NCBI GenBank assembly: GCA_002327905.1
Contig: DCUY01000067.1
Coordinates: 10,764 to 74,763 of the forward strand
Direction of reading: 5' to 3'
Length of the DNA stretch: 64,000 nt
From: a candidate division WOR-3 bacterium UBA2202
GTDB lineage: Bacteria; Hydrothermota; 32-111
This document shows positions 10,618-53,586 of this stretch, piece by piece. The notes below the pieces were generated by a model. The model ran no database searches and had not been told where the DNA came from. It worked only from the letters and a program-made list of their open reading frames with translations. The position numbers were made by a program, and so were the translations under genes. Within the stretch, counting starts at the first letter, position 1, and each line of letters begins with the position of its first letter.

Positions 10618-10629
10618 TTTCCCTCCTTT

Positions 10630-11838: not shown

Positions 11839-12743
11839 TACTGTCCGACATTGAGAAGAGGAGTCAGATTCTGGTCGAAAGGCATTATTACCACCTTTGT
11901 GTTATTTGAATTCAACACTTCCTTCAGATTCTGTATGTAGTACCACTGCAAATACTGTTTGTTTAGAGATTCGGATATTTTTTTCTGAGAGACTGCAATT
12001 CCCTCTGCTTCAATAAGTTTTCTCTCTTTCTCTCTCTGCTCCTTTTCTAAAACATAAACCATCTTCTGCGCATCCTGCTCCGCAGCTATTTTCTCGTCAA
12101 TCGCATTTTTTACCTTTTGAGGCAGATCTATATTCCTTAAAAGAACTTTATCGCATATAATGCCTTTTGCAGAAAAATTGTTATCCAGTTCTTCAAATAT
12201 GACATTGGTCAATTCCTCTCTCTTTAAAGAATATATTTCAGTCACATTGTACAGAACTGTGGCATTTCTTATGGCTGTCCTTATTGCCGGCCGCACAATC
12301 TTTTCCACATAATCCTGACCTATATTTTGGTAGACCTCGGCCGCTTTATCGCTTTTCAGCTGGTACCATACTGTTATATCAAGATTTATCTGAAGCCCGT
12401 CTTTTGTGAGGGATGTTATTCCATCATCTCCCTTTCTTACCCCCTCTTCCTGAGCCACTGACATTGTATAGTCTTGAGTCCTTACATTCATGGTCTTTAT
12501 CTCCACAAAAGGAAAGACAAAATGCAATCCGTTTGAAAGAACTTTTTTGTACACTCTGCCGAAAAGAACCTGCACACCCACTGACCCGGGCTGTACTATT
12601 CTGACAGTTGACGCAAGAAGCAATACTGCAATTATCACTGCCCCCCATGTCACCATCATTTTCTTGTTCATCGCAAATTTCGGATAATAGCGCGGAACCA
12701 AAACCAAGAGAGCTATTATTATAATTACTATCAGAAATCCCAT
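11838..12743 (-). CDS. SPFH/band-7 (prohibitin/HflC-like) membrane scaffold protein
   Basis: N-terminal TM helix followed by an SPFH core (GSVGVQVLFGRVYKKVLSNGLHFVFPFVEIKTMNVRTQ). C-terminal coiled coil rich in EQ and KER. Confidence 0.8.
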   Translation of the reverse strand: MGFLIVIIIIALLVLVPRYYPKFAMNKKMMVTWGAVIIAVLLLASTVRIVQPGSVGVQVLFGRVYKKVLSNGLHFVFPFVEIKTMNVRTQDYTMSVAQEEGVRKGDDGITSLTKDGLQINLDITVWYQLKSDKAAEVYQNIGQDYVEKIVRPAIRTAIRNATVLYNVTEIYSLKREELTNVIFEELDNNFSAKGIICDKVLLRNIDLPQKVKNAIDEKIAAEQDAQKMVYVLEKEQREKERKLIEAEGIAVSQKKISESLNKQYLQWYYIQNLKEVLNSNNTKVVIMPFDQNLTPLLNVGQ

Positions 12744-13349
12744 TTATTCCTCCTTGTTAAATTTTTTCAACACACAAGAAATATCATCGTACTTGAAGCC
12801 TTTTCTTGCAAAAAACGACACTCTCTTTTTTTCATCCGAATTCATAAACTTTTTTTTCAGCAATTCATTTATAATATCTCTCTCGTCATAGTCTTTCAGC
12901 CACTCCTCGATATTACGGATTTTCTCATCATCATTGAATTTCATTTTCATTTTGAAGAGTATTTCCATCTTTGAGTATTTTTTAGAATCGACGAGATATT
13001 CAAAATAATCCTTCATATATTTATCATCATTTAAGAAACCCATTTTTTTTATGTGCTCGATTAATTTTTTGGCGGCGGGTTTGTCCAGTTTTCTTTGATA
13101 CAATTTGTTATACAGCTCCTTCTCGGTATAATTTTTTTTTGAAAGAATATTCAGCAGATAATGTTTGTTTGATTCAAACAAATCCAGACTCTTTATTTTT
13201 TGAACAAATTCGTCGCTTATATCCATCCCATTAGTAATTTTCTCCTTCAGAAAGACATCTTCAAAGACGGAGAATGAGTATTCTCCGTCCAAAAAAATAT
13301 TTACTTTCAGCTTATTTTTCTTTGCTCTCTCTATTTTTGTTATCTTCAA
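12744..13349 (-). CDS. recX: RecA regulator RecX
   Basis: 201 aa basic helical protein. N-terminal [17 protein letters not shown] matches the RecX consensus. Lies directly downstream of recA. Confidence 0.6.
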
Positions 13350-14337
13350 TTGCTATTCCCATTGCTTTTCTTATTTTTCCTTCAATCTCATCAGCAACAT
13401 CTTTATTCTCTTTTAGAAACAGTCGGATATTCTCTCTTCCCTGTCCGAGCTTGTTGTTACCGTATGCATACCATGCTCCTGTCTTTTCAATTATATTTAA
13501 ATTGGAAGCCATATCCACAATTTCACCCTCTCTTGAGACTCCCTCTCCAAAATAAATAGAGACCTGAGCGCGCTTGAACGGCGGAGCGACTTTATTCTTT
13601 ACTACTTTGACCTCAATGATGTTTCCTATCTCTTCCTCTCCTGATTTAATTGATGTCACTCTCCTCACTTCCATTCTTATTGAAGAGTGGAATTTCAATG
13701 CAAGACCACCGGGAGTTGTCATAGGATTTCCGAATATGACTCCGATTTTGTATCTTATCTGATTTATAAAGACCACAGATGTCTTTGATCTGTTTATTAC
13801 TGCCGTCAGTTTTCTTAAGGCCTGCGACATGAGTCTCGCCTGAAGCCCCATGTGCGAATCTCCCATGTCTCCTTCTATTTCGGCCTTCGGAGTCAAAGCG
13901 GCGACAGAGTCGATGACAACAATATCCACACTGCCGCTTCTTACAAGCATTTCAGTAATCTCCAGAGCCTGCTCCCCTGTATCCGGCTGTGAAATATAAA
14001 GATTGTCAATGTCAACTCCGAGTTTCTGCGCATACTGCGGGTCAAGAGCATGTTCGGCATCAATGTATGCGGCTATGCCTCCGGCTTTCTGCGCCTGAGC
14101 GGCTATCTGAAGAGCGAGAGTTGTTTTTCCGCTTGCTTCAGCTCCGTAGATTTCCACAATTCTTCCCCTCGGAACTCCGCCGATGCCTAATGCCGCGTCA
14201 ATCGCAATAGAACCTGTGGAGATAATGTCTCCCGCCACATTCGGCCTCTCCCCCAATCTCATTACAGATCCTTTGCCATATTCTTTCTCGATCTGTTTGA
14301 GAGTGATTTCAAGTGATTTCATTTTGTTGTTATCCAT
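13312..14337 (-). CDS. recA: Recombinase RecA
   Basis: Walker [18 protein letters not shown]2 loop region [16 protein letters not shown], and overall RecA length and architecture. Confidence 0.95.
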
Positions 14338-14904
14338 CTATACCTCCTGATTTTTTTCGAATAAAGAAACATACTGCGGCCCGTTCTCTGAAAACCGCGA
14401 CTCATAAAGAGTTATTGAAGATATTTTATAAATCACAGAACCCGAGGAATCCGCTCTGCCTGAAACATACTCCTTCAAGGCGGATCCGCTCTCCTCATCC
14501 TTGATTCTTGCTATTGTTATATGAGGATTAAAGACTTTTCTGTCAAAATCTATATTTTTGTCTACAAGCCTTCCCCTTATGTCATTTGCCGTCTTCGCCA
14601 GTTCTTCCGTATTCACCAGAGCATAATAGAGAATTGAAGGAATATTATTCCTTGAAAAGAATGACATTCTGTCTCCGCGCACAGAAGATATTCCGAACGG
14701 CTGAGCCCTTATAATGCCTTCAAGGTTCGGAATCATTCTGTCCTCAACCTGCCCCAAGAATGCAATGGTTATATGCATGTTTTCAGGCTTCACCCAGCTG
14801 ATGCCCTGAAGCTGAAGATTGTTTTTCATTTTATGTTGCATCACCAAAAGTTCGTTTCTCAAATCTGTCGGAAGTTTGTATGCAATAAACAGACGTCTAC
14901 TCAT
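14338..14904 (-). CDS. thpR: RNA 2',3'-cyclic phosphodiesterase (2'-5' RNA ligase family)
   Basis: Two H-x-T-x motifs (HITIAFLG and HITIARI) in a 188 aa protein. Confidence 0.8.
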   Translation of the reverse strand: MSRRLFIAYKLPTDLRNELLVMQHKMKNNLQLQGISWVKPENMHITIAFLGQVEDRMIPNLEGIIRAQPFGISSVRGDRMSFFSRNNIPSILYYALVNTEELAKTANDIRGRLVDKNIDFDRKVFNPHITIARIKDEESGSALKEYVSGRADSSGSVIYKISSITLYESRFSENGPQYVSLFEKNQEV

Positions 14905-16090
14905 GTTGTACTCTCCTTAATAGGTTATATAAGGCTATTCCTGCGCTCTTCTCTCTGACAGAGTTCCTGTCTCCGGAGAATTCTTTTTTTACAGTCACAA
15001 TCTTTTCTTTATAGCAGGTCGAAATATATACAAGTCCTGTGCGCTTTTCTTTTGTCTCTCCATTTGGTCCTGCAATTCCTGTGACGGAGATTGATGCGTC
15101 AGTATTGAAGACACGGGTGACATTCATCGCCATTCTCTCTGAGACCTCTCTGCTCACTGCACCGTATTTTATAATGACCTTATCCTCAATCTTAAGAATC
15201 TTCTCTTTAATTTCATTTGAATAGGCTATAATTCCTCCTTTGAACACTCTGCTGCTTCCCGGAATATCTGTGAGCATTTTGCCTATCATGCCTCCGGTGC
15301 AGGATTCTGCAAGAGAGAGGGTCAATCTTTTTAATAAAAGAAGCTTCAGTAATTCCTCTTCAATTTTACAGCCGTACGGTATTACATTTTTCTCCGCAAA
15401 TTTTTCCTTTGCATATTCTATTAACTTCTTTTCTTTTGAAACGAGTGTGACACTTCCGTACGAAGGAAGGAAAGCAATTTTATCAATGTCAGTCTTAGTA
15501 AATTTTTCCGAAAGAGCGAGAAATATTTGCGACTCATACATGTCAAAGAGCTTCACTCTGTATTCCGCCTTTTTTCCTCTCAATCGCAGATTTTTCGAAA
15601 GTCTGTTCTTCATAATCCAGTCCGCCTCTTCAGGCACTCCGGGGAGAAGATAAATATCCGTGTTTTTCTCCTTGACAAACTGACATTGCGCAGTTCCTGA
15701 CAAATTCTCAATTATCACTGCTCCTTCAATTTTCTGAGATTGATGCGAAAGAAGATAATCCGATTTATTTTTCATTCTTCTCTCCGCAATTTTTCTCAAA
15801 CCGGGGTCATCCACAATTTTTCTTTTTAATGCCTTTGCAGTCCCTGCAATTGTCCTGTCGTCCGGAGTCGGGCCCAATCCTCCTGTCACGATTATCACAT
15901 TGGCTTTACAGATAAGCAATTTTAATGCTTCGGAAATCTCCTCTTCATTATCTCCGACCGAAATCTCCATTGAAACACGATAACCCATTTCAGTCAGCAT
16001 GCGCCCTATTGATGAAGCATTTGTATTTACAGTCATTCCTTTTAGAAGCTCATCTCCAACAGAGAGTATTGCGGCATTCAAAGTATCCAT
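14897..16090 (-). CDS. cinA: CinA family protein (MocF-like N domain + nicotinamide-nucleotide amidohydrolase PncC C domain)
   Basis: N-terminal AAILSVGDELLKG...IIVTGGLGPTPDD and C-terminal LSLAESCTGGMIGKMLTDIPGSS. Classical cinA-recA linkage. Confidence 0.85.
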   Translation of the reverse strand: MDTLNAAILSVGDELLKGMTVNTNASSIGRMLTEMGYRVSMEISVGDNEEEISEALKLLICKANVIIVTGGLGPTPDDRTIAGTAKALKRKIVDDPGLRKIAERRMKNKSDYLLSHQSQKIEGAVIIENLSGTAQCQFVKEKNTDIYLLPGVPEEADWIMKNRLSKNLRLRGKKAEYRVKLFDMYESQIFLALSEKFTKTDIDKIAFLPSYGSVTLVSKEKKLIEYAKEKFAEKNVIPYGCKIEEELLKLLLLKRLTLSLAESCTGGMIGKMLTDIPGSSRVFKGGIIAYSNEIKEKILKIEDKVIIKYGAVSREVSERMAMNVTRVFNTDASISVTGIAGPNGETKEKRTGLVYISTCYKEKIVTVKKEFSGDRNSVREKSAGIALYNLLRRVQHE

Positions 16091-16518
16091 ATTACAATCC
16101 TCAAAAGGGCATTTGCGGCAATTCCCGAGATAATGTCATCCATTATGATCCCTGCAGTCCCTTTAATGTTCTCTGATTTTCTTATGAAGAGAGGTTTCGC
16201 AATGTCCATATATCTGAAAAGAATAAACGCAGAGGCGAATATAAAAACCGAATGGGGCAAAAATAAAAGCGAAACAATCATTCCAATAAGCTCGTCCGCC
16301 ACAATTTTAGAATCATCTCCTTTGAAAGAACCCGCATACTCTATCGAAATGGAAGACAGAAGCAGAACATTTGAAAAGATCAGAAACATCTGAATATCGC
16401 CAAACCTCATAAAATAAGCAATGAGGCAGAAAAGGAGGGATACTATGGTTCCGCCGCCCTTAATATTGCCAATATAAAAACATGAAGCGATAATGTGATA
16501 TATTTTTTTAAAAATCAT
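16078..16518 (-). CDS. pgpA: Phosphatidylglycerophosphatase A
   Basis: 146 aa membrane protein. The N-terminal FYIGNIKGGGTIVSLL matches the PgpA family. Confidence 0.75.
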   Translation of the reverse strand: MIFKKIYHIIASCFYIGNIKGGGTIVSLLFCLIAYFMRFGDIQMFLIFSNVLLLSSISIEYAGSFKGDDSKIVADELIGMIVSLLFLPHSVFIFASAFILFRYMDIAKPLFIRKSENIKGTAGIIMDDIISGIAANALLRIVIWIL

Positions 16519-17246
16519 TTATACATCTCTGGAATTCTCTTCAATTCCCTGATGTCCTCTATCGAAAACAGATTTAAGTGGTTGAGAATGATTATTATCT
16601 TTTTTATTTTTCCATCTTTTATTCCTATTCCGGATACAAATGAAAGCAATTTTTCAGGAAGAAACGGCGGAATCTGTTTTATGTCAGTCTCTTTGAAGCG
16701 AGCAATTCCGACAAGATAATCCACATAGATTCCAACTCTGAGATCATCAATCTGAAGAATTATTATTGAACCGTCTTCTTTGCGGTCGTCTTTCATGCCG
16801 AATTTTTTTCTGAAATCAACAAGAGGAATAACTCCGTCCTTCATATTTGTTATTCCGAAAAACAGGTCGCTCTTCACTCCGACATCCAATGGCTTCTTAT
16901 ATTTTATTATCTGCCTCACAAAATCACTGTCAATTGCATATTCTTCATTCTTAAGAAGAAATGTCACAAACTCTTTTACCGAATCAGCATCCTCTTTTTT
17001 TTCTTGAGACTGATTCATGCGCCGAATATCGGCAATTTCAGATTTTACCTGCGACATTTCAATTTTCTTTTCTGCCTTCACCGGCTCCTTATGCTCAAGA
17101 TGCTCTGATTTCTCCTGTTTGGAAGCAATTTCAGGTTTGGACAGTTTCACTAAAGGTCCCTTTTCTTCAGACTTTTTAGGCTTGATCTTCTTGTCCGGTT
17201 TATCGTTCTGAAGAATATCCTGAAGGTCAATTTTCTTTTTCATCAT
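16515..17246 (-). CDS. CheW-like coupling protein with a Lys/Glu-rich N-terminal extension
   Basis: C-terminal CheW domain (EYAIDSDFVRQII...GVIPLVDFRKKFG...IIILQIDDLRVGIYVDYLVGIARF). The first ~90 aa are a K/E-rich low-complexity region. Confidence 0.75.
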   Translation of the reverse strand: MMKKKIDLQDILQNDKPDKKIKPKKSEEKGPLVKLSKPEIASKQEKSEHLEHKEPVKAEKKIEMSQVKSEIADIRRMNQSQEKKEDADSVKEFVTFLLKNEEYAIDSDFVRQIIKYKKPLDVGVKSDLFFGITNMKDGVIPLVDFRKKFGMKDDRKEDGSIIILQIDDLRVGIYVDYLVGIARFKETDIKQIPPFLPEKLLSFVSGIGIKDGKIKKIIIILNHLNLFSIEDIRELKRIPEMYK

Positions 17247-18072
17247 TTTCTCCGGTTAATTCTTTTAGCTTTTCTTCCGCTTTCTGAGCCCATCTGTTGT
17301 ATCTGTTCTTCTTTATAAGGTCATTAAGGGTCTTTATGCCCTTGTTTTCAAGGCCCGATTCAAAGAATGCTATTCCGAGATAATAATACGCCTCCATATG
17401 ATTGGGTCCGAGCTCAATGGTCTTGCGGAAGAATTTTATCGCGTCATCATACATCTCCCTGTCTCTATAAATAAGTCCAAGGTAAAAATTTGCATATATC
17501 AGCGACATTTTATCGTCAGTAGTCTTTAATACTGAAGTAAGATGCTCAATAGCCTCTCCAAATATTCCTTTTTTGAAACACACATATCCCAGATTGTTTT
17601 TTGCTATTGCATTATCAGGGTCAATCTGAAGAACCTTCTGAAATATTGACATCGCATCATCATACCTCTCCTTGTGAAGATATGCCCATCCCAAAAGCCC
17701 GAGAGATTTCACATCATTCGGGGCAAGACTCATTGCTTTTTCAAGTATTTCGACAGCATCATCATACTGCTCGTCAACCATGAAATTCCATCCCTTGTCT
17801 ATATATGTTGTCAAATCAACAGGAGAAATTTTCATTGACTGCACAAATGACTGCAGGCCCTCTTTGTTTATATTCGGATTCTTTATTCTCTTTGCCAGCT
17901 GTTTTATCCTCCCGTCAGCATGTTTTATAAAAGCATTCATTGATAAAATCTGCTTATAGACTTCCATAAGCTCGTTTTTTATATGCTCCTCTCCGTATTT
18001 TCCGGTATCAATTACACTCTCTATTCTGTCGAGATGAGCATCAATTTCCTTTTTTGCATCAGTCCATTTCAT
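17227..18072 (-). CDS. TPR repeat protein
   Basis: Multiple 34-aa repeats of the W-LG-Y / A---F---L---P-N type (LGWAYLHKERYDDAMSIFQKVLQIDPDN and others). Confidence 0.7.
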   Translation of the reverse strand: MKWTDAKKEIDAHLDRIESVIDTGKYGEEHIKNELMEVYKQILSMNAFIKHADGRIKQLAKRIKNPNINKEGLQSFVQSMKISPVDLTTYIDKGWNFMVDEQYDDAVEILEKAMSLAPNDVKSLGLLGWAYLHKERYDDAMSIFQKVLQIDPDNAIAKNNLGYVCFKKGIFGEAIEHLTSVLKTTDDKMSLIYANFYLGLIYRDREMYDDAIKFFRKTIELGPNHMEAYYYLGIAFFESGLENKGIKTLNDLIKKNRYNRWAQKAEEKLKELTGENDEKEN

Positions 18073-19102
18073 CTGTCAGCTCCTCTATCTTTTCAGAGAT
18101 TCTGTCTTTGTCCATTATAAAATCGACACTTCCCGTATCAATTGCGGCTTTCGGCATACCGAAGACTACTGATGAATCTTTTGATTCCGCTATGTTTGTT
18201 CCGCCCATTTTTTTTATTATGAAGACTCCTTCAGAGCCGTCCTTCCCCATTCCTGTCAAAATGACTCCTATAATTCTTTTTCTGAAGTATCTCACTGCGG
18301 AGAGCATCATTATGTCAGCCGCAGGTTTGACGGAATGGTACGGAGGGTCATCCGACAAATGTACAATTCCGCTTTCATCAAAAATCATGTGTTTGCCGCC
18401 CTGAGCGATAATACAGTCTCCGTTTTTCAAGCCGCAGTTTTCGTATGCTTCAAAAACATTCAAACCCGACATGGTGTTCAGTCTCTCGGAAAATGATTTT
18501 GTGAAACCGGCAGGCATGTGCTGGACAACTGCGACAGCAGCGTTCAGCTCCGGCTTTATGCGCGGTATTATCTCCATAAGGGATTTCGGTCCGCCCGTTG
18601 AAGATGCTACAGCGACAAGATTGACTGCATTTGTCTCCTGCTTTGCCTTGCCGCCCACCCTCTCGGCTACTGCAGAAGAAGATTGAAATAGTCTGCTGAT
18701 ATTTGATTTCAAAGCGCATTGCATTTTTTGAAGTATTTCATCCCTCTTCTCCGTGATGTCCAAAGATATTGAACCTGACGGTTTTTCCACTATATCAAAT
18801 GCTCCGAATTCAAGAGCTTTAAGAGCTATCTTGGAGCCTGCTTTTGAATACGCGCTCACTATGATTACAGGTACGGGCTTTATACGTAGAATCTGCTGAA
18901 GACTTATCAGTCCGTTTATCTTCGGCATTTCAATGTCAAGTGTCACAATATCAGGATCAAGAATCCTGAATTTTTCTATCGCCTCCGCTCCGTCTGCCGC
19001 TTCGCCCACTACCATGAATGCCTTGTCTGAATTGATTATGTCCTTCAATATCTGCCGCATCAACAATGAATCATCAACGACAAGAACTCTGTTGATTTTC
19101 AA
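18059..19102 (-). CDS. cheB: Chemotaxis response regulator protein-glutamate methylesterase
   Basis: N-terminal receiver (VLVVDDSLLMRQ...DIVTLDIEMPKINGL) and C-terminal methylesterase (VAVASSTGGPKSL...GMPKAAIDTG). Confidence 0.9.
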   Translation of the reverse strand: MKINRVLVVDDSLLMRQILKDIINSDKAFMVVGEAADGAEAIEKFRILDPDIVTLDIEMPKINGLISLQQILRIKPVPVIIVSAYSKAGSKIALKALEFGAFDIVEKPSGSISLDITEKRDEILQKMQCALKSNISRLFQSSSAVAERVGGKAKQETNAVNLVAVASSTGGPKSLMEIIPRIKPELNAAVAVVQHMPAGFTKSFSERLNTMSGLNVFEAYENCGLKNGDCIIAQGGKHMIFDESGIVHLSDDPPYHSVKPAADIMMLSAVRYFRKRIIGVILTGMGKDGSEGVFIIKKMGGTNIAESKDSSVVFGMPKAAIDTGSVDFIMDKDRISEKIEELTDEMD

Positions 19103-19578
19103 TATTGAATCTCCCCGAGTTTATATGATGTCACTTTAATCTTTCCTGTCTTAATTGTGAATTCGACCGACCTGCTGTAATCGCTCCCCGTGTCCTCAGC
19201 TGTCACAGGTATTCTGTTCTCTCTCAGCATTTTTTTTGCCATTTCAATATTTCTGTATCCTATTGATTCTTCAACATTTTTTATAAAAATGGAGAACATG
19301 TTGGCCCCTCCGACTACTTTTGCCTCCATTCTGTATTTTCTTGCTCCAAGCTGTTCCATCTCCATAATTAGATTGGACAGGCCAGTGTCGCAGTATTTGT
19401 ACGGATTAAAGAAAGCCTTGGAAAATACTTTGCTCGGCAGCATAAAATGTATCATTCCTCCTATTTTTTTTTCTCTGTCAAAGAGAGTTACCGCAACGCA
19501 GGAGCCGAGTCCTATCGTTTTAAGCACATCCTCTTCAAATGCTACATTGGCGTCAGCTATTCTGATGTTAATAATCAA
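19099..19578 (-). CDS. cheD: Chemoreceptor glutamine deamidase CheD
   Basis: 159 aa. The GLGSCVAVTLFD...GGMIHFMLPS signature matches CheD. Confidence 0.85.
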   Translation of the reverse strand: MIINIRIADANVAFEEDVLKTIGLGSCVAVTLFDREKKIGGMIHFMLPSKVFSKAFFNPYKYCDTGLSNLIMEMEQLGARKYRMEAKVVGGANMFSIFIKNVEESIGYRNIEMAKKMLRENRIPVTAEDTGSDYSRSVEFTIKTGKIKVTSYKLGEIQY

Positions 19579-20371
19579 TTTTTCTAAAGACCCTTTCCTT
19601 TCTGTTTATTGTTTCAAACATGTCTTTTACATAGCCCGTAAGAATTTCGACTTTTCCGAGGACAAGATATCCGTTCTGCTTCAATATTTTATGAAAGTTT
19701 GATATAATGCTCTCCTGAAAATCCTTTGAAAAATATATCAGAATGTTTCTGCATATTATCAAATCAAATTTCCCCATTGTAAGAAGGGAGTCGCTCTCCT
19801 TTATATCCATAATTATAAAATCCACATTTCTCTTTATATCTTCATCAAGAATGTAATGCTGTCCGCTCTTCTTAAAGTATCTCGCCACCTCAGAATGCTT
19901 CAGCTCCATAAAAGAGTAATCGCTGTAAATTCCTATTTTTGCCTTTTCAATGGCGTCTGCGTCAACATCTATCCCCACTATTTCATAATCTCCGTCAGAG
20001 TTTCTGAAAAAATTCTTCAGTATCATTGAAAGAGTATACGGCTCTTCTCCTGTGGAGCATCCTGCGCTTAAAATGCGCACCTTCTGATTTTTCCGCACAA
20101 TGTCTTTGAATATTACATCTCCAAGAAAATCAAATGTCTCTCTGTTTCTGAAAAATCTCGTCACATTTATTGTAAGAGTGTCTTTCAGCTTCATCATCTC
20201 AGCTTGATTGTACCGGAGATATTCAAGATACTCTCTGTAGCTCTTCTGGTCAGTATATCTCATTCTGACAGCTATTCTTCTCTTGAACGGCCTCTCTTTG
20301 TATAGGTTTCCGTCTATGCTGATATGCTTCTTTATATAATCAATAAGAAACTGATAATCATTGTCAACCAT
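19568..20371 (-). CDS. cheR: Chemotaxis protein methyltransferase CheR
   Basis: TRFFRNRETFDFL N-terminal helical domain, and the SAM-binding motif VRILSAGCSTGEEPYTLSMIL. Confidence 0.9.
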   Translation of the reverse strand: MVDNDYQFLIDYIKKHISIDGNLYKERPFKRRIAVRMRYTDQKSYREYLEYLRYNQAEMMKLKDTLTINVTRFFRNRETFDFLGDVIFKDIVRKNQKVRILSAGCSTGEEPYTLSMILKNFFRNSDGDYEIVGIDVDADAIEKAKIGIYSDYSFMELKHSEVARYFKKSGQHYILDEDIKRNVDFIIMDIKESDSLLTMGKFDLIICRNILIYFSKDFQESIISNFHKILKQNGYLVLGKVEILTGYVKDMFETINRKERVFRKIDY

Positions 20372-21962
20372 TTCTTACGGTCTCCAGAGTGCGTTTCAAA
20401 ATTTCATTGTCAGGCTGAAGTTCAAGAGCCTTTTCCCAATAAACCAAAGCATCCTGCTTTTTTCCCTTTCTATAGCGGAGATTTCCGATTTTATACAGTA
20501 TGTCAAAATCCGCTTTTCCGATATTGACTATGTCTTCAAGCACTTGTTCCGCCGCGTCAAAATTCTTTTCATTGAAATAATATTCCACTAAAGCTTTGAA
20601 AGGAACAGGGTCGGAATTTGAAGTCTCGACCGCTTTTTTAAACATACTCTCTGCGGACTCAATTTTTCCGCTTATTGTGTATATTTCTCCTAAATTGTAA
20701 TAAACCTGCCATATTGTATTGTCCTGTTTTATAAGTGAAAAGAGAATATTTGTAGCTTCGCTCACCATTCCGTTTTCAAAATATACAAGCGCAAGAAAAA
20801 ATGATGCGTATTTCAGGTTTTGGTCTATTTTTAACGCCATTTTAATTCTCTCTTCTGCCTCTGAGAAGAGATTCATTTTGAATGAGAGTATTCCATAATT
20901 AGCAAGAATCTTGGCATTCTCAGGTTCGATCTTCAAAGCTCTCTCATAAAATTCATCCGCCCTTTCGTAATTATTCAGCCTCTCATAAGTGAGAGCTATA
21001 TTGTTGAAAAGGGCGATATTTCCGATTCCAAGCTTCAAGAGCTCCTCAAAAGATTGAAGAGCCTTCTCATAGTCTTTCAATCTGAAGTAAATAAGCCCTA
21101 TATAGAAATATGCTTTGATATTGGTTTTGTCTATCTGTATTATATGCCTGAATTCCCGCAGAGCCTCTTCATACATTTCAGTCAGAAGAAATGCAAGCCC
21201 TAAATTGTGGTGCTCCTGCACTTTTGTCTGAATGTCTGTGGACATCTCTATCTGCTTCTCTTCTCCTGAATAAATGTATCCCACTTTCAGAAGAGTGTAT
21301 ATGGCCTTTCCCGTTTCATATCTTCCCAAAACTGATTTGTCAAAGATCTCTCTTATTGAGAGCCTGTTATTTACAAGAGAATAAATGTATCTCTCGTCAT
21401 CCTCCTGAAGAGTCTTCTCATCCTTTATGCTCGTCTTTACCAGAATGGTCTTCTCATTCGGAAGTTCTTTCTCAATTATCGACCACTCATCGATTTTTCT
21501 CGCCTCCTCAAGAAGTATATCATCCGCTTCAAGCTCCACAGTGATGGTTTCGGATACAGGCGGAATATCCGGTTCAAAATTGAAGAACCCGTCTTTCCAT
21601 GTCAGAAGAGTGAATATTGAATCTATTATTTGTTTTTTTATTCTGTCCACCAAAATATCAAGAGTTATGTATCCCATCTCTATAAGAAGGTCTCCAAGCC
21701 TTTTCAGCCCCTTCATCTCCTCTTGAGCCTCCAAAGCCTTCTCCAAATTCTCTTTTGAAATATCTCCGTACTTCACAAGCAGATTGCCAAGCCTCTCTTC
21801 CCTGTTTACTATTGAGCAGTAAATAATCTTTCCGTCCCTGAAGAAAATATCACCAAAATTCTTCTTGTCGGAAACACTCAAAACTCCGGTCTTCCTTCCT
21901 AAAGAAAGCAGTTGAATCACATCAGGAAGAGACGCCTCTTTGAGGTTTCCCCGTATGCTCAT
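20364..21962 (-). CDS. DUF4388-like N-terminal domain fused to a TPR-repeat array
   Basis: The N-terminal ~100 aa (GNLKEASLPDVIQLLSLGRKTGVLSV...GDIFFRDGKIIYCS...ERLGNLLVKYG) fit the DUF4388 pattern. The C-terminal half holds at least seven TPR motifs. Overlaps cheR and the upstream ATPase gene. Confidence 0.55.
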   Translation of the reverse strand: MSIRGNLKEASLPDVIQLLSLGRKTGVLSVSDKKNFGDIFFRDGKIIYCSIVNREERLGNLLVKYGDISKENLEKALEAQEEMKGLKRLGDLLIEMGYITLDILVDRIKKQIIDSIFTLLTWKDGFFNFEPDIPPVSETITVELEADDILLEEARKIDEWSIIEKELPNEKTILVKTSIKDEKTLQEDDERYIYSLVNNRLSIREIFDKSVLGRYETGKAIYTLLKVGYIYSGEEKQIEMSTDIQTKVQEHHNLGLAFLLTEMYEEALREFRHIIQIDKTNIKAYFYIGLIYFRLKDYEKALQSFEELLKLGIGNIALFNNIALTYERLNNYERADEFYERALKIEPENAKILANYGILSFKMNLFSEAEERIKMALKIDQNLKYASFFLALVYFENGMVSEATNILFSLIKQDNTIWQVYYNLGEIYTISGKIESAESMFKKAVETSNSDPVPFKALVEYYFNEKNFDAAEQVLEDIVNIGKADFDILYKIGNLRYRKGKKQDALVYWEKALELQPDNEILKRTLETVRNG

Positions 21963-23633
21963 TTACACCTCAAACTCGACATACAATCTGTCATGTTCGT
22001 TAACCCATTCCTTAATAAGCTTGGAAGTGTCATATTCGCTCTTTTTCCTTGAGGAGATTTTTTTTGATTCTGTCTGAGGAAATACTTTGTTGATTGCTTC
22101 AACTGTCGGTGCGCCGCCGGGAGAAAAAGATGCGAGCTCCGCAAATTTTTCATCAACGCTTGAAAGCGGAGTTTCTATGGCATCAAGCATATAATTCATC
22201 AGAAAATCATTTGTCTGAATACCTGCTCTTGCGAACATACTCTTGTAGACATTTTTTTTGATAAAAAGAGAGGTCGGCTGAATATTGTAGGATTGAAATT
22301 TATTAAGGAAATTCAACAGCTCTCTGTCATCAATGCTGAATTTTCTGTACATTGAAATCACTTTAGGCACATTATTCATAATAATATTTTTTAGGACAAG
22401 CTTGTTGGCTTTATTCTCAAAGAGTAAATCAAAATCATCTATCAAAATTATGCTGAGCTCATCCATATATTTCATGACATATGAATTGTTCACTGCTGAA
22501 TCGATATTGGTTTTGTCCAATAGAATGATTCTCTTATCCGAAAATCTGTTGCAGATGCTGTTTAAGAGATGCGTCTTTCCTGTTCCGTTTGTTCCTGTCA
22601 ATATAACTATTTTATCGGCATTTTCACTATTCAGTATTTCTGTTATTTTGTTGTATGCCGACCTGTTCGTCGCATCCGTTATGAAGGATTCATAATTCAT
22701 CGAAAGCTTTGTACTGCTTCTGAAAACTCTGAGGTATTTAATTTTATCTTTTAAAAATTCTATCTTTTCCCGCAGTTCAACCAGTCTGTCAGGGTCAAAA
22801 AGCATATCCTCTATCTCTCTTGATTCCTTCTTAAACTCCTTGACATTAAGAAGCCCGTATTCCTTATGGAGTTCAACAAGATTCTTCACCTTCTCCGTAT
22901 ATTCGGAGAACTCGCTCTTAATCAATGAAATGTCATTCACATTTATTATATTCTTTAGTCTCTCCACATTGAAGCCCTTCATCTCCCAAATATAGAGTTT
23001 TTCAATATACTCGTCTCTTTTTTCCCCCTCTCTCAGATTTTCCTGCACTCCGGCCTCTCTCTTTACTTCTCTTATAAAATCGGCAAAATCCTTGACCGGA
23101 TTCTCTTCCTTCTTTTCCGGGCTGAAGGTGAGATCAAAAAATTTCCCTGCCATCAGAGTGTTTTTTGTCCTTAAATCTATGGTTATATCCTCCAGACTTT
23201 TCTTTGTAGTGACCAGAAGATATGATGTTGAATGAAGATTGTTGATTATTTCGAGGATTATGTCATGAACAACAGTATTCTTCTCCACCTGCTCAAAATT
23301 TTCTATTATCAAAAGATTTGAATAGAGAAGGAATCTCTTATACTTCATCAAAGCATTGAATTTCATCATCTCAACCATCTCTTTAAGATCAATTCTGAAA
23401 ATATAAAAATCAGGAAATGCATTTGATATTGACTCTGCCATTTTGTCGGCAAATATTTCTCCAGACTGGTCATCAGAACGAACTACAATTACTCTTGAAG
23501 TCAATGTGCCTGTGCTTACTGCATAAGAGAGCTCGGATTTCAGAAAAGCATTTTCCGGAAGTTCAGTGTCGCCGCTGTGCTTCTGTCTGGTTCCGAATGT
23601 CTCCTGAAACTCCTTTATATCATTTTCATTCAT
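21963..23633 (-). CDS. Tandem DnaA/Hda-like AAA+ protein: N-terminal degenerate copy plus C-terminal intact ATPase module
   Basis: C-terminal module has Walker A ILTGTNGTGKTHLLNSICN, Walker B SIILIDDFDLLFENK and a sensor-like stretch, closely resembling the DnaA/Hda AAA+ core. N-terminal residues ~40-170 repeat the layout (FLLYSNLLIIENFEQV...YLLVTTKKSLEDI) but lack a P-loop. TGA/ATG junction with mglA. Confidence 0.5.
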   Translation of the reverse strand: MNENDIKEFQETFGTRQKHSGDTELPENAFLKSELSYAVSTGTLTSRVIVVRSDDQSGEIFADKMAESISNAFPDFYIFRIDLKEMVEMMKFNALMKYKRFLLYSNLLIIENFEQVEKNTVVHDIILEIINNLHSTSYLLVTTKKSLEDITIDLRTKNTLMAGKFFDLTFSPEKKEENPVKDFADFIREVKREAGVQENLREGEKRDEYIEKLYIWEMKGFNVERLKNIINVNDISLIKSEFSEYTEKVKNLVELHKEYGLLNVKEFKKESREIEDMLFDPDRLVELREKIEFLKDKIKYLRVFRSSTKLSMNYESFITDATNRSAYNKITEILNSENADKIVILTGTNGTGKTHLLNSICNRFSDKRIILLDKTNIDSAVNNSYVMKYMDELSIILIDDFDLLFENKANKLVLKNIIMNNVPKVISMYRKFSIDDRELLNFLNKFQSYNIQPTSLFIKKNVYKSMFARAGIQTNDFLMNYMLDAIETPLSSVDEKFAELASFSPGGAPTVEAINKVFPQTESKKISSRKKSEYDTSKLIKEWVNEHDRLYVEFEV

Positions 23634-24232
23634 CTTTTATTATCATACTTCCTTGTCAATTGCTTTATCACCGAAAACATCGCGTCTTTCAATGTCTCAA
23701 TCACCCCGGTTCCCTTTGTTGCAATAGCTTCAAAAGCCTTCCAATCGCTCCTTATCTGAAGAGCGCTCTTAATTACATTTGTGTCAACTGCATTCGGCAG
23801 GTCTCTCTTATTATACTGAATCACCAAAGGCATTGTCTCTATGCTGAATCCGTGCTCCTTAAGATTGATGGCAAGATTTTCAAAAGATTCTATGTTATCC
23901 TCCATTCTATCCGCCTGAGAATCCGCTACAAAGACAACTCCGTCAGCTCCCTGAAGAACAAGTTTTCTTGTAGAGTCGTAATATACCTGTCCGGGAACAG
24001 TATAGAGCTGAAATTTCGCATTGAAATTTCCTATTTTCCCCACATCAAATGGAAGAAAATCAAAGAAGAGCGTCCTGTCCATCTCAGTTGCAAGAGATGT
24101 CATTTCCCCTCTCTTTTCAATTGGAATTTTGCTGAAGATATACTGCAGGTTGGTTGTCTTGCCCGACCTTCCCGGTCCGTAGTAAACAACTTTGCAGATA
24201 ATCTCTTTTTTTGCGTAGTTTACCAATGACAT
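23630..24232 (-). CDS. mglA: MglA-family Ras-like small GTPase
   Basis: Near-collinear with Myxococcus MglA: KVVYYGPGRSGKTTNLQYIF (P-loop), TLFFDFLP (switch I), YTVPGQVYYDSTRKLVLQGADGVVFVADSQ (switch II, with intrinsic Arg and Gln), IQYNKRDLPNA (NKxD). Start set at MSLVNYAKKEI (24232) by alignment to MglA N-termini. The ORF-track start at 24268 is also possible. Confidence 0.9.
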   Translation of the reverse strand: MSLVNYAKKEIICKVVYYGPGRSGKTTNLQYIFSKIPIEKRGEMTSLATEMDRTLFFDFLPFDVGKIGNFNAKFQLYTVPGQVYYDSTRKLVLQGADGVVFVADSQADRMEDNIESFENLAINLKEHGFSIETMPLVIQYNKRDLPNAVDTNVIKSALQIRSDWKAFEAIATKGTGVIETLKDAMFSVIKQLTRKYDNKR

Positions 24233-24239: not shown

Positions 24240-25343
24240 TCAATCTCTGAATGTGTTATTGAAAGCATCGCCTTCGTTTGACTCTATTCCTCTCAGTTTC
24301 AGCTTGAATTCGTCAACATTAGTTACTGACTGCAATGCGTCGTCATATGATATTATTCCTGACTTATATAAACGTATAATGGATTGATCAAAAGTGTGCA
24401 TCTGGTACTGCTGACCCTCTTCTATGGCTGACGGAATAAGAAGAGTCTTTATCGGGTCAAGAAGATAATCCTTTATTGTAGGGGTGTTAATCATCACTTC
24501 GGTGGCTGGCACCCTGCCCTTTCCGTCAACTCTCGGAAGAAGCCTCAATGAGAGAACTCCCACAAGAGTGGTCGCCAGCAAAACTCTTATATGTTGCTGT
24601 TGATGAGGAGGATAGAATGAAAGTATTCTGTTTATAGTCTCTGAAGCATTCAAAGTGTGCAGTGTTGACATCACAAGATGTCCCGTGTCAGCCGCTTTGA
24701 TTGCGACATCCATTGTATCCATATCTCGAATCTCTCCCATCAGAATAATGTCCGGATCCTGCCTCAGCACATGCTTTAAGGCATTTTCATAAGAGAATGT
24801 GTCATTTCCCACCTCTCTCTGCGAAATAACGGATTTTTTGTCTCTGAAGAGATACTCAATCGGGTCTTCAATCGTAATGATATTTCTGGCTGCATTTTCA
24901 TTTATGTATTCAATCATTGCCGCAAGAGTTGTTGATTTTCCGCTTCCGGTTGTTCCTGTGGTGAGTATCATTCCTCTCGGCCTCATAACGACCTCTTTTA
25001 ACACCGGAGGCAGATTGAGCTCGTCAATTGTCTTTGCGGATATGGGGATTGTGCGCATTGCAATCGCAACACTTCCCCTCTGAAGATAAACATTGACCCT
25101 GAATCTTGAAAGACCGGCGACTCCTATTGCAAAGTCTATTTCTTTTTTGGCAGTGAATTCATCCTGTTGCTCCTTATTCATAATCTTCAATGCAATCTTC
25201 CGCAATTCATCAGGACTCATCGGCTCGTCTTTTACAATGTTCAGCTTCCCGTCAATTCTAAGAATCGGAGGAGTGCCTGCCTTAAGATGCAGATCTGATG
25301 CTCCGTCCTTAACCATTTTTTCAAGCAATGATTTTAATTCCAT
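24240..25343 (-). CDS. pilT: Type IV pilus retraction ATPase PilT
   Basis: 367 aa. N-terminal GASDLHLKAGTPPILRIDGKL, Walker A GTTGSGKSTTL, Asp box and His box (TLHTLNASETINRIL). PilT-type length, with no long N-terminal domain. Confidence 0.9.
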   Translation of the reverse strand: MELKSLLEKMVKDGASDLHLKAGTPPILRIDGKLNIVKDEPMSPDELRKIALKIMNKEQQDEFTAKKEIDFAIGVAGLSRFRVNVYLQRGSVAIAMRTIPISAKTIDELNLPPVLKEVVMRPRGMILTTGTTGSGKSTTLAAMIEYINENAARNIITIEDPIEYLFRDKKSVISQREVGNDTFSYENALKHVLRQDPDIILMGEIRDMDTMDVAIKAADTGHLVMSTLHTLNASETINRILSFYPPHQQQHIRVLLATTLVGVLSLRLLPRVDGKGRVPATEVMINTPTIKDYLLDPIKTLLIPSAIEEGQQYQMHTFDQSIIRLYKSGIISYDDALQSVTNVDEFKLKLRGIESNEGDAFNNTFRD

Positions 25344-27601: not shown

Positions 27602-27630
27602 ATTATAATTAATTTTTTTTATAGTGTCAA
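27602..27630 (-). promoter_or_regulatory. Sigma-70-like promoter (TTGACA-17-TATAAT) for the long minus-strand operon
   Basis: The reverse complement reads TTGACA CTATAAAAAAAATTAAT TATAAT. The -10 element ends about 36 nt upstream of the ATG at 27565. Confidence 0.45.
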
Positions 27631-53576: not shown

Positions 53577-53586
53577 ATTTCACCCC

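What the first reader, a model, noticed from the sequence alone, without database searches (positions are those of the whole stretch)
16515..20371. Che adaptation enzymes and a CheW-like adaptor without kinase, receptor or CheY
CheR, CheD and CheB imply a methyl-accepting substrate, yet no MCP, CheA or CheY is encoded nearby. The CheW-like protein has a ~90-aa Lys/Glu-rich N-terminal extension, and a TPR protein is intercalated. The methylation target may be non-canonical, or the set may act on a receptor encoded elsewhere. CheB's own receiver domain would need a phosphodonor.
Basis: partly seen in the sequence, partly recalled or inferred. Interest (0 to 1): 0.6.

Follow-up and report, generated by a model that had tools for sequence, protein, structure and literature searches.

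The report
Pilus-linked Che adaptation gene block
In an uncultured WOR-3 (Stahlbacteria) bacterium, intact chemotaxis adaptation enzymes (CheR, CheD, CheB) and an unusual tethered CheW lie in a conserved gene block with the pilus retraction motor PilT and the polarity switch MglA. Their receptor and kinase are not encoded nearby, and the rest of the genome could not be searched.

Summary
Window 16515-20371 (minus strand) encodes CheR, CheD, CheB (receiver plus methylesterase), a 281-aa TPR protein and a 243-aa CheW-like protein. The CheW-like protein has a ~89-aa disordered Lys/Glu-rich N-terminal extension.

No MCP, CheA or stand-alone CheY was found in the 64-kb window or in ~20 kb of further contig flanks. 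None was found within about 10 kb (less on short contigs) of the orthologous cluster in the other lineages examined.

The che genes are the downstream half of a contiguous block: pilT, mglA (true orthologue), a lineage-specific tandem AAA+ ATPase, a PATAN(DUF4388)-TPR protein, cheR, cheD, cheB, a TPR gene and cheW. This order is invariant in six sequenced lineages of phylum WOR-3; the one relative placed by GTDB is class 32-111.

- The enzymes keep all catalytic residues and are under strong purifying selection. CheB's receiver is as conserved as its catalytic domain.
- CheB's nearest relatives are F1-type, and there cheA sits next to cheB.
- The CheW domain folds as CheW but has changed hallmark receptor-contact residues.

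Most likely this is the adaptation and scaffold part of an F1-derived chemosensory pathway recruited to MglA and type IV pilus control, with receptor and kinase encoded elsewhere. Whether they exist genome-wide could not be tested, so a truly kinase-less system is not excluded.

The parts
27602..27630 (-). Sigma-70-type promoter-like site (TTGACA-17-TATAAT, 12 of 12) in the 147-bp gap upstream of the gene run
   Evidence: It is the only 12/12 match in 9.5-29 kb. Every downstream gene junction is at most 12 nt or overlapping. This is a consensus match only and function is not shown.
25916..27565 (-). 549-aa TPR protein with long Lys/Glu-rich low-complexity regions; first gene of the run
   Evidence: Pfam TPR hits. 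A TPR protein of 474-575 aa is present upstream of efp in all lineages.
25354..25914 (-). efp (elongation factor P); a housekeeping gene embedded in the run
   Evidence: Pfam EFP_N, EFP and Elong-fact-P_C.
24240..25343 (-). pilT, type IVa pilus retraction ATPase
   Evidence: NCBIfam TIGR01420 pilT_fam 462.5 bits against a cutoff of 319. Pfam T2SSE 2.3e-50. 81-96% identical among lineages.
23630..24232 (-). mglA, Ras-like polarity GTPase (true start probably Met13 of the listed ORF)
   Evidence: phmmer against PDB: M. xanthus MglA 6h17 E=2.7e-70 and T. thermophilus MglA 3t12 E=1.5e-66. The match starts at ORF residue 13, and the alignment shows DRTLFFDF and TVPGQ conserved. Orthologues are 199-201 aa.
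21963..23633 (-). 556-aa lineage-specific tandem AAA+ (DnaA/Hda-like) ATPase. The N-terminal AAA-like half is degenerate, a conserved helical module follows, the C-terminal half has intact Walker A and B, and the C-tail DRLYVEFE is conserved.
   Evidence: Close full-length homologues (40-100% id) include only WOR-3/Stahlbacteria among named sources (alignment A3). AF2 model pLDDT 78. Foldseek top hits are tandem-AAA p97/Cdc48. NCBIfam Hda 1.9e-14, below cutoff. Profile search results.
20364..21962 (-). PATAN (DUF4388) domain plus about 8 TPR repeats. The PATAN insert carries MshEN-like c-di-GMP-binding motifs.
   Evidence: Pfam DUF4388 2.1e-36 at residues 4-161, plus TPR families. NCBIfam NF053729 c-di-GMP motif 45.2 bits against a cutoff of 38 at residues 57-111. 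59-87% identical among lineages.
19568..20371 (-). cheR, protein-glutamate O-methyltransferase
   Evidence: Pfam CheR and CheR_N. The SAM-binding STGEEPYT, DVD and CRNILIYF motifs are conserved in six lineages and align with E. coli CheR. The beta-subdomain loop is short.
19099..19578 (-). cheD, chemoreceptor glutamine deamidase
   Evidence: Pfam CheD 2.2e-31. The best NCBIfam model is the Thermotoga-type CheD. GLGSC(V/C) and GG(M/L)IH(F/Y)MLP are conserved in six lineages. These are read as the catalytic Cys and His by comparison with T. maritima CheD from my own knowledge.
18059..19102 (-). cheB, receiver plus methylesterase
   Evidence: NCBIfam NF001965 357.6 bits against a cutoff of 293. 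The alignment with E. coli CheB shows receiver D10, D11, D56 and K109 and catalytic S164, H190 and D286 conserved in six lineages. Mean pairwise identity is 67.6% for the receiver and 63.6% for the catalytic domain.
17227..18072 (-). 281-aa TPR protein between cheB and cheW, overlapping both
   Evidence: Pfam TPR families. Present at this position in all lineages, 59-81% identical.
16515..17246 (-). CheW-like protein. It has a conserved N-terminal MKKKIDLx[DES] peptide, a ~75-aa disordered K/E-rich linker, a complete CheW double barrel (residues ~90-228) and a conserved C-tail [IVL]PExY[KR].
   Evidence: Alignments A1, A2 and A4. AF2 pLDDT is 80-94 for residues 90-243 and below 50 for 13-86. 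Foldseek top hits are CheW of E. coli, Thermoanaerobacter and Thermotoga, E 3e-12 to 1e-8, TM(target) 0.75-0.82. Close homologues number only 19 clusters; the few with a taxon name are Stahlbacteria/WOR-3.
10195..16518 (-). Downstream genes of the same tightly packed run: pgpA, cinA, ligT, recA, recX, an SPFH/Band7 gene, a DUF401 gene and a 140-aa ORF. They are housekeeping genes and probably not functionally part of the module.
   Evidence: Pfam. Junctions are at most 12 nt or overlapping. The order through the Band7 gene recurs in all six lineages, and DUF401 wherever the locus reaches that far.
43756..45447 (-). pilB, type IVa pilus extension ATPase with an N-terminal MshEN c-di-GMP-binding domain. 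It lies 18 kb from pilT and is a probable target of the PATAN protein.
   Evidence: NCBIfam TIGR02538 682 bits against a cutoff of 676, and NF053729 71 bits. Pfam T2SSE plus MshEN.

Best explanation
The five genes are the adaptation and scaffold part of an F1-derived chemosensory pathway. In this WOR-3 lineage (the one GTDB-placed relative is class 32-111) the pathway has become physically joined to a type IV pilus polarity module: pilT, mglA, a tandem AAA+ ATPase and a PATAN-TPR protein.

Proposed working (inferred):
- CheR methylates, CheD deamidates and phospho-CheB demethylates an MCP-type coiled-coil receptor encoded elsewhere in the ~1.4-2 Mb genome.
- A kinase encoded elsewhere phosphorylates CheB's receiver and an output regulator. 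It would be CheA, or a receptor-kinase fusion.
- The divergent CheW-like protein joins the receptor array. Through its tethered N-terminal peptide and conserved C-terminal tail it recruits the TPR proteins and/or the adaptation enzymes.
- The PATAN-TPR protein, possibly tuned by c-di-GMP, and MglA pass the signal to PilB and PilT to set pilus activity or cell polarity. This is analogous to Frz acting on MglA in Myxococcus and to PATAN regulators acting on PilB in cyanobacteria.

Shown: gene identities, intact catalytic residues, purifying selection, invariant gene order in six lineages, F1 affinity, the CheW fold with altered contact residues, and absence of partners nearby.

Inferred: the existence and location of receptor and kinase, every protein-protein contact, and the pilus output.
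For: - Identities and intact active sites.
- Purifying selection: pN is 0.06-0.25 while pS is 0.6-0.78 (saturated) for cheR, cheD, cheB and cheW, similar to efp and ligT. CheB's receiver is as conserved as its catalytic domain.
- Gene order: pilT-mglA-AAA-PATAN/TPR-cheR-cheD-cheB-TPR-cheW is identical in six lineages, down to 42-50% identity of the fastest-evolving members.
- Nine consecutive motility or signalling genes, with overlapping or abutting junctions and one strong promoter-like site upstream.
- mglA is a true orthologue. pilT and pilB reach curated cut-offs.
- In Synechocystis the PATAN domain is the output domain that binds the PilB N-terminal domain and PilC, and MglA/MglB genes often neighbour PATAN genes (bioRxiv 10.1101/2021.06.11.447907).
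- In Myxococcus the Frz chemosensory system acts on the MglA module (PMC3441718).
- CheB's nearest non-WOR-3 relatives (45-49% id) come from Thermococcales, Synergistota, Clostridia and Methanocella. Two of these contexts were inspected: a flagellar operon and an archaeal-type CheF operon. I read both as F1-type from my own knowledge of that class. In both, cheA directly follows cheB. The ancestor therefore had a CheA, and the present arrangement is a rearrangement.
- The pilus machinery and mglB are also not nearby, so this genome scatters functional partners.
- No local methylation motif exists, so the substrate must be elsewhere.
Against: - No MCP, CheA or CheY has been seen in any sequence of this lineage available here. 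That is about 84 kb around the window plus roughly 10 kb on each side in the other lineages.
- The CheW-like domain has replaced hallmark contacts. E. coli I33 (T. maritima V27, a receptor contact) is an invariant Ser. The NLRG motif (R62-G63), present in all three solved CheW types, is N-x-K-[DS]-G. E38 is Gln (PMC3828127; PMC13098124). It may therefore not bind a canonical receptor-CheA pair.
- The same conserved run also contains efp, pgpA, cinA, recA and recX. Conserved adjacency in this lineage does not by itself prove functional coupling.
- No CheC, CheX or CheY accompanies CheD as in typical F1 systems.
Confidence: 0.5

Rival explanations
1. This is an ordinary split chemotaxis system, and its adjacency to pilT and mglA is incidental. 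CheR, CheD, CheB and CheW serve a conventional pathway, for example a flagellar F1-type one. Its cheA, cheY and mcp genes lie at another locus. The che genes sit beside pilT and mglA only because this small genome keeps long syntenic runs of unrelated genes.
For: - The same invariant run contains clearly unrelated housekeeping genes: efp, pgpA, cinA, ligT, recA and recX.
- The enzymes are closest to F1 CheB proteins found in flagellar and archaellar operons.
- mcp genes are commonly scattered in genomes (general knowledge).
Against: - Nine motility or signalling genes are contiguous.
- PATAN proteins are known partners of Che-type systems and of PilB.
- Two TPR proteins and a lineage-specific AAA+ co-vary with the che genes.
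- The CheW is atypical rather than a standard F1 CheW.
- No flagellar gene occurs in about 84 kb.
- The only cultured WOR-3 isolate has pili and showed no motility, and neither WOR-3 genome paper mentions flagella. That isolate belongs to a different class.
Confidence: 0.2
2. The system has no CheA kinase and no canonical MCP. The lineage has lost cheA and canonical mcp genes. Reversible glutamate methylation and deamidation by CheR, CheB and CheD then act on a non-MCP protein. The CheW-like protein is a tethered adaptor for that target within the MglA-pilus module. CheB would be phosphorylated by a non-CheA kinase or not at all.
For: - No partner is seen in any available sequence of the lineage.
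- The CheW receptor-contact residues are remodelled, and the extension with its conserved terminal peptides is unique.
- CheA directly follows CheB in the two outgroup operons inspected but is missing here.
Against: - No methylation consensus occurs in any cluster protein or anywhere in the 64-kb window.
- All three enzymes keep their canonical catalytic motifs; CheR's basic N-terminal stretch (KRRIAVRMR) is my own reading of the sequence.
- CheB's receiver phosphorylation residues are invariant, and the domain is as conserved as the catalytic domain.
- Only a small part of each genome was visible.
Confidence: 0.12
3. The partner is a receptor-kinase fusion of the MAC type, or another histidine kinase. 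A methyl-accepting coiled-coil protein fused to a histidine kinase, encoded elsewhere, would supply both the methylation substrate and the phosphodonor. That would explain the lack of cheA. The divergent CheW would help such proteins form arrays.
For: - MAC1 and MAC2 categories pair receptor-kinase fusions with CheB and CheR functions.
- A rare divergent CheW class co-occurs with MAC1 (bioRxiv 10.1101/2022.05.07.491037).
- The CheW here is divergent.
Against: - No MAC-like protein was seen in any locus.
- MAC systems are uncharacterised.
- The enzymes here resemble F1 proteins, and CheD is not a described MAC component.
- This could not be tested.
Confidence: 0.1
4. The che genes are a decaying remnant of a lost chemotaxis system and no longer function.
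For: There are no partners nearby, and the genomes are small (1.4-2.0 Mb).
Against: - All reading frames are intact in six lineages.
- Catalytic residues are invariant.
- pN is far below the saturated pS.
- Conservation is comparable to housekeeping genes.
Confidence: 0.03

Closest known systems
[quoted passage not shown]
   Same: A Che-type pathway with CheR, CheB and CheW-like proteins is tied to MglA and to polar PilB and PilT. TPR modules are involved (my own knowledge: FrzF is a CheR-TPR fusion; abstract: SgmX is a TPR effector of MglA). Frz has a divergent second CheW, FrzB (my own knowledge).
   Different: - Frz belongs to the ACF class (PMC3441718) and, by my own knowledge of the frz operon, encodes its receptor FrzCD and kinase FrzE in one operon with FrzA, FrzB, FrzF and FrzG. 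It is not adjacent to mglA.
- Here the enzymes are F1-like, CheD is present, no receptor or kinase is in the cluster, the TPR is a separate protein, and no mglB or romR is nearby.
- The lineage is WOR-3, not Myxococcota, so any coupling would be independent.
Cyanobacterial Tax/Pil chemosensory systems with PatA-type (PATAN-REC) response regulators
   Same: A PATAN (DUF4388) domain protein is encoded with Che-type genes and controls type IV pili. In Synechocystis the PATAN domain binds the PilB N-terminal domain and PilC.
   Different: - There PATAN is fused to a receiver and is phosphorylated by a CheA encoded in the same operon, together with the MCP and CheW.
- Here PATAN is fused to TPR repeats with no receiver, and no CheA or MCP is in the cluster.
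- The adaptation enzymes CheR, CheB and CheD are present.
F1-class chemotaxis systems (Firmicutes, Thermotogae, Archaea)
   Same: CheB is 45-49% identical to F1-type CheB. CheD best matches the Thermotoga-type model. CheR has the short beta-subdomain loop.
   Different: - F1 operons carry cheA, cheY, cheC and cheW next to cheB and cheD and sit in flagellar or archaellar contexts.
- Here cheA, cheY and cheC are absent, and the neighbours are pilT, mglA and the PATAN gene.
MAC1/MAC2 systems (methyl-accepting coiled-coil kinase fusions with CheB and CheR functions)
   Same: These are Che adaptation functions that operate without a CheA. A rare divergent CheW class is associated with them.
   Different: No MAC protein is seen here, CheD is present, and the enzymes are separate F1-like proteins. 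MAC systems are themselves uncharacterised.
CheR-TPR fusion methyltransferases (e.g. FrzF, WspC)
   Same: TPR repeats are associated with the adaptation enzymes of non-flagellar chemosensory pathways (PMC3447774, abstract seen).
   Different: The TPR is a separate 281-aa protein between cheB and cheW rather than a C-terminal fusion to CheR. Homology of its TPR to those fusions was not tested.

Membership tests
Chemosensory (Che) pathway, complete | A CheA histidine kinase (Hpt, dimerisation, HATPase_c and P5 domains) | tested here: inconclusive
   Absent from the window, the contig flanks and about 10 kb on each side of six orthologous clusters. The rest of the genome could not be searched.
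Chemosensory (Che) pathway, complete | At least one MCP with the MCPsignal domain and methylation heptads | tested here: inconclusive
   There is no MCPsignal hit and no tblastn hit. The methylation consensus occurs 0 times in any frame of the window. Genome-wide presence was not testable.
Chemosensory (Che) pathway, complete | A CheY-type single-domain response regulator | tested here: inconclusive
   The only receiver domain in 267 kb of lineage sequence is that of CheB.
CheB methylesterase | The Ser-His-Asp catalytic triad and receiver residues equivalent to D10, D11, D56 and K109 | tested here: met
   The alignment with E. coli CheB shows all of them conserved in six lineages. NCBIfam NF001965 scores above its cutoff.
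CheR methyltransferase | An N-terminal helical domain plus a SAM-binding fold with the conserved motifs | tested here: met
   Pfam CheR_N and CheR. The motifs align with E. coli CheR in six lineages.
CheD deamidase | The CheD fold with a catalytic Cys-His pair | tested here: met
   Pfam CheD 2.2e-31. The Cys of GLGSC and the His of IH(F/Y)MLP are invariant. Assignment of the catalytic roles comes from my own knowledge of T. maritima CheD.
CheW coupling protein (canonical) | Two five-stranded beta-barrels (the CheW fold) | tested here: met
   The AF2 model has 10 strands at pLDDT 80-94. Foldseek hits solved CheW structures at E 3e-12 with TM(target) 0.75-0.82.
CheW coupling protein (canonical) | Conserved receptor and kinase contact residues: a hydrophobic residue at E. 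coli I33, and the NLRG motif (R62, G63) | tested here: not met
   I33 is an invariant Ser, R62 is Lys, G63 is Asp or Ser, and E38 is Gln in all 16 family members. V36, I39, G57, N60 and P67 are kept (residue lists from PMC13098124 and PMC3828127). A one-residue register shift at K-D-G cannot be excluded.
CheW coupling protein (canonical) | A single-domain protein of about 150-170 aa | tested here: not met
   The protein is 239-251 aa, with an 86-94-aa disordered extension bearing a conserved N-terminal peptide.
MglA polarity GTPase | Sequence orthology to MglA, including Thr in the PM3 motif (TxxGQ) and the intrinsic Arg | tested here: met
   E=2.7e-70 to M. xanthus MglA. The alignment shows DRTLFFDF and TVPGQ conserved.
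MglA/MglB module | A cognate Roadblock/LC7 GAP (MglB) encoded with mglA | tested here: not met
   No Robl_LC7 protein occurs among ORFs of at least 130 aa in the window or in the called genes of the orthologous loci. It may be encoded elsewhere.
PatA-type (PATAN-REC) regulators | A PATAN domain fused to a receiver domain | tested here: not met
   PATAN (DUF4388, 2.1e-36) is fused to TPR repeats, and there is no receiver.
Tfp-class chemosensory system (Pil-Chp type) | A ChpA-like multi-Hpt CheA, PilJ-type MCP, PilG/PilH and PilI in one cluster | tested here: not met
   None of these is in the cluster, and CheB is F1-like.

The most novel reading that the evidence does not exclude
This WOR-3 lineage (class 32-111 for the one GTDB-placed relative) has no CheA and no canonical MCP at all. 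An F1-derived CheR/CheD/CheB set and a tethered, re-specified CheW would then form a kinase-independent, methylation-based regulator. It would act on a non-MCP or receptor-kinase-fusion target to steer MglA, PilT and PilB. That would be chemotaxis-style adaptation chemistry rewired into a pilus polarity switch, independently of Myxococcus Frz.
Probability: 0.13. Interest if true: 0.8.

Novelty: new variant of a known kind. Interest (0 to 1): 0.4.

Why it matters
Chemosensory pathways that steer type IV pili are known from Proteobacteria, cyanobacteria and Myxococcus. This block would be an independent, F1-derived example in a barely cultured phylum.

- It physically links adaptation enzymes, an atypical tethered CheW, a PATAN-TPR protein, MglA and PilT.
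- It offers a compact set of candidate protein-protein contacts: conserved terminal peptides and TPR domains.
- It offers a new AAA+ component to test.
- If the genomes truly lack CheA and MCPs, it would show CheR/CheB/CheD chemistry working outside the canonical receptor-kinase array. That would be a significant surprise for the field.

If the partners are simply elsewhere, it is a modest but useful extension of known diversity.

Tried and rejected
- **Genome-wide partner search.** The single genome-contig scan used an alignment that included two canonical CheWs. No WOR-3 genome was retrieved and no further scan was allowed.
- **Metagenome scan** with a family-only alignment. It returned five loci, all with the same cluster and no new partners.
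- **Literature.** KEGG numbers for cheA, mcp, cheW, cheR, cheB and cheD, and the words chemotaxis and pili, are absent from the WOR-3 genome papers and their supplements.
- **Local methylation targets.** The TPR, KE-rich, PATAN and AAA proteins were considered and rejected, because no consensus heptad exists.
- **AAA556 as a substitute kinase.** Rejected. It has AAA+ folds and no HATPase_c or His-kinase features.
- **The small GTPase as a generic Arf-like protein.** Rejected in favour of true MglA.
- **CheW as a truncated FrzB-like protein.** Rejected, because the model shows the full double barrel.
- **dN/dS ratios.** Synonymous sites are saturated, so only the statement that pN is far below pS is used.

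Full report
**Observation**

The finding's coordinates match five minus-strand ORFs exactly.
- cheR, 19568-20371
- cheD, 19099-19578
- cheB, 18059-19102
- a 281-aa TPR gene, 17227-18072
- a 243-aa CheW-like gene, 16515-17246

The Pfam matches are unambiguous: CheR 5.5e-51, CheD 2.2e-31, CheB_methylest 1.2e-53 with Response_reg 8.1e-24, and CheW 7.2e-22 at residues 92-228.

The N-terminal extension of the CheW-like protein is real.
- It is 86-94 aa in six lineages.
- It contains 17-39% K+R and 14-24% D+E.
- It is predicted disordered, with pLDDT below 50 for residues 13-86.

**Absence of partners nearby**

Every ORF of at least 130 aa in the 64-kb window was scanned with Pfam. None has an MCPsignal domain, a CheA architecture or a stand-alone receiver.

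The source is an 88.5-kb JGI metagenome contig, and the same organism is NCBI MAG GCA_003543575.1. The stretches beyond the window carry glycosyltransferases on one side. On the other side, read from a near-identical ENA contig, they carry thrS, infC, rpmI, rplT, zapA and rny.

tblastn used E. coli CheA, Tar, Tap, CheY and CheZ, a Thermodesulfovibrionales MCP, and F1-type and archaeal CheA, CheC, CheY and CheF. The targets were 267 kb of the window plus orthologous loci. It hit only the CheW domain (through CheA-P5), CheR and the CheB receiver.

Upstream on the same strand, with junctions of -20 to +10 nt, lie four genes.
- pilT: TIGR01420, 462 bits against a cutoff of 319.
- A true mglA: E=2.7e-70 to M. 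xanthus MglA, with the match beginning at Met13 of the listed ORF.
- A 556-aa P-loop protein.
- A PATAN(DUF4388)-TPR protein.

Further upstream are efp and a 549-aa TPR protein. In the 147-bp gap before it lies the only 12/12 sigma-70 consensus in 9.5-29 kb. Downstream of cheW follow pgpA, cinA, ligT, recA, recX, an SPFH gene and a DUF401 gene.

The order from TPR-efp-pilT-mglA-AAA-PATAN/TPR-cheR-cheD-cheB-TPR-cheW-pgpA through recA-recX-Band7 is identical in six lineages. Protein identities fall to 42-50% for the fastest-evolving members and stay at 75-96% for RecA and PilT.

One of these genomes, GCA_020721805.1, is GTDB p__WOR-3 c__32-111. It is 1.70 Mb and 96.7% complete. Named homologues are Candidatus Stahlbacteria or candidate division WOR-3.

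**State of the che genes**

- The alignment with E. coli CheB shows the receiver residues (D10, D11, D56, K109) and the catalytic Ser, His and Asp conserved in all six lineages.
- The CheR SAM-binding motifs and the CheD Cys and His motifs are likewise invariant.
- Non-synonymous differences are few (pN 0.06-0.25) while synonymous sites are saturated (pS 0.6-0.78), as for the neighbouring housekeeping genes.
- CheB's receiver (67.6% mean identity) is at least as conserved as its catalytic domain (63.6%).

These genes are functional, and a phosphodonor for CheB is expected.

**Ancestry**

Among CheB homologues, 23 clusters (58-100% id; the named ones are WOR-3/Stahlbacteria) are followed by a gap. 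The next proteins are 45-49% identical and come from Thermococcales, Synergistota, Clostridia and Methanocella.

Two of the closest outgroup contexts are a flagellar operon (flhA, flhF, flhG, PilZ genes, cheB, cheA, cheC, cheD, sigD) and an archaeal one (cheF, cheY, cheB, cheA, three cheC, cheD, cheR). I read these as F1-type from my own knowledge of that class. CheD best matches the Thermotoga-type model.

The module is therefore F1-derived. In the two outgroup operons inspected cheA sits directly beside cheB, but here it does not.

**The CheW-like protein**

Close homologues number only 19 clusters. The next hits are canonical 168-171-aa CheWs at 30% identity, one from a Thermodesulfovibrionales MAG where it lies next to an MCP.

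The family shares four features.
- A conserved N-terminal peptide, MKKKIDLx[DES].
- A variable ~75-aa K/E/P-rich linker.
- The CheW domain.
- A conserved C-terminal tail, E[LMI][KR]x[IVL]PExY[KR].

The domain is modelled confidently as a complete double barrel. Its best structural matches are solved CheW proteins.

It departs from solved CheWs at hallmark positions.
- The receptor-contact residue I33 of E. coli (V27 of T. maritima) is an invariant Ser.
- The NLRG motif (R62-G63), shared by the E. coli, Thermotoga and Thermoanaerobacter proteins, is N-x-K-[DS]-G.
- E38 is Gln.

The contact lists come from PMC13098124. Conservation of G57 and G63 in both F1 and F7, and of R62 and E38 in F7, comes from PMC3828127. 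V36, I39, G57, N60 and P67 are retained.

**Local methylation targets**

The consensus [ASTG][ASTG]xx[EQ][EQ]xx[ASTG][ASTG] gives four matches in Tar, at positions fitting its known methylation region (my own knowledge). It does not occur in any cluster protein of four lineages or in any reading frame of the window.

**Other module members**

*The 556-aa protein.* Its full-length relatives come, where named, from WOR-3/Stahlbacteria (27 homologues).
- The model shows two AAA+-type domains. The first lacks a Walker A motif. The second has GTGKTHLLN and LIDDFD.
- A conserved helical module joins them.
- Foldseek recovers tandem-AAA proteins.
- A profile search finds 570-870-aa tandem DnaA-like proteins in WOR-3 and TA06.
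- It also finds the ~100-aa helical module repeated up to 14 times in very long proteins.

*The PATAN-TPR protein.* Its PATAN insert matches the MshE-type c-di-GMP-binding motif above the curated cutoff, as does the N-terminus of PilB at 43756-45447. The second motif copy survives a strict pattern in four of six lineages.

**Interpretation**

PATAN domains are the output domains of cyanobacterial chemosensory regulators and bind PilB and PilC. MglA and MglB genes often neighbour PATAN genes. In Myxococcus the Frz chemosensory system drives the MglA polarity module that positions PilB and PilT.

Nine consecutive motility or signalling genes, invariant across the lineage, therefore most plausibly form one module. 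In it an F1-derived adaptation set and a re-specified, tethered CheW are coupled to MglA, PATAN and pilus control.

The three enzymes have only MCP-type coiled coils as known substrates, and none is local. A receptor, and a kinase for CheB, are therefore expected elsewhere in the genome.

pilC, pilM-Q, the pilin gene and mglB are also absent from ~84 kb, and pilB is 18 kb from pilT. This shows that the genome scatters obligatory partners.

A tether role for the conserved terminal peptides is a hypothesis only. It is analogous to the receptor pentapeptide that docks CheR and CheB, or to C-terminal ligands of TPR domains.

**Caveats and rivals**

- The same syntenic run includes unrelated housekeeping genes, so adjacency alone is not proof. 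The system could be an ordinary split chemotaxis pathway.
- The partner could be a receptor-kinase fusion of the MAC type, with which a rare divergent CheW class co-occurs.
- The lineage could truly lack CheA and MCPs.

I could not decide among these.
- The metagenome scan added nothing new.
- The WOR-3 literature and supplements say nothing about chemotaxis genes.

**Verdict**

- The thing is a new variant of a known kind: a chemosensory module linked to type IV pilus and MglA control.
- It is of moderate interest.
- There is a roughly one-in-eight chance that it is a genuinely kinase-less methylation system.

Noticed in passing
window 23630-24232 (-): mglA has no Roadblock/LC7 (mglB) gene beside it. 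None occurs among ORFs of at least 130 aa in the window or in the called genes of the orthologous loci. mglA is instead flanked by pilT and a tandem AAA+ gene.
   Followed up: partly
window 20364-21962 (-), residues 57-111; and 43756-45447 (-), residues 4-56: The PATAN-TPR protein and PilB both match the MshE-type c-di-GMP-binding motif model NF053729 above its cutoff (45 and 71 bits). The motif is two tandem 24-residue repeats, RLGxx[LVI][LVI]xxGx[LVI]...Q. The second repeat is kept in 4 of 6 lineages, which suggests c-di-GMP input to the module.
   Followed up: partly
window 21963-23633 (-): The ~100-aa conserved helical module (residues ~195-300) of the tandem AAA+ protein recurs up to 11-14 times in 1200-3090-aa proteins, for example a Thermoplasmata DUF835 protein. 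It also occurs in 570-870-aa tandem DnaA-like proteins of WOR-3 and TA06. It has no Pfam family.
   Followed up: partly
window 27602-27630 (-): A perfect TTGACA-17-TATAAT site lies in the only sizeable intergenic gap upstream of a 19-gene run (27565 down to 10195). All junctions in the run are at most 12 nt or overlapping, and recA and recX overlap by 38 nt.
   Followed up: partly
window 16515-23633 (-) and orthologues: All four non-enzyme module proteins keep conserved extreme C-termini across six lineages: CheW ..[IVL]PExY[KR], AAA+ ..DRLYVEF[EK]x, TPR281 ..NE[KE]EN and PATAN-TPR ..TV[KR]NG. These could be ligands for the TPR domains.
   Followed up: no
window 8861-10198 (+): The ThyX gene encodes 445 aa with two Thy1 domain stretches, apparently a fused double ThyX.
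   Followed up: no
window 3415-6900 (+): SecA is 1161 aa. Its DEAD-like domain match spans residues 5-508 against a 290-position profile, which implies a large insertion.
   Followed up: no
window 51113-62551: A polysaccharide biosynthesis and export locus contains several large ORFs with no Pfam match or only a sub-threshold one: 464 aa at 51113-52507, 776 aa at 54579-56909, 528 aa at 56969-58555 and 470 aa at 61139-62551.
   Followed up: no
L008 / L009 (Thermodesulfovibrionales MAGs): The nearest canonical CheW outside the family sits in a CheA-less cluster: MCP(CZB)-CheW-HDOD-hybrid HK-Hpt-REC-HDOD. This is another case of CheW and an MCP paired with a non-CheA kinase.
   Followed up: no
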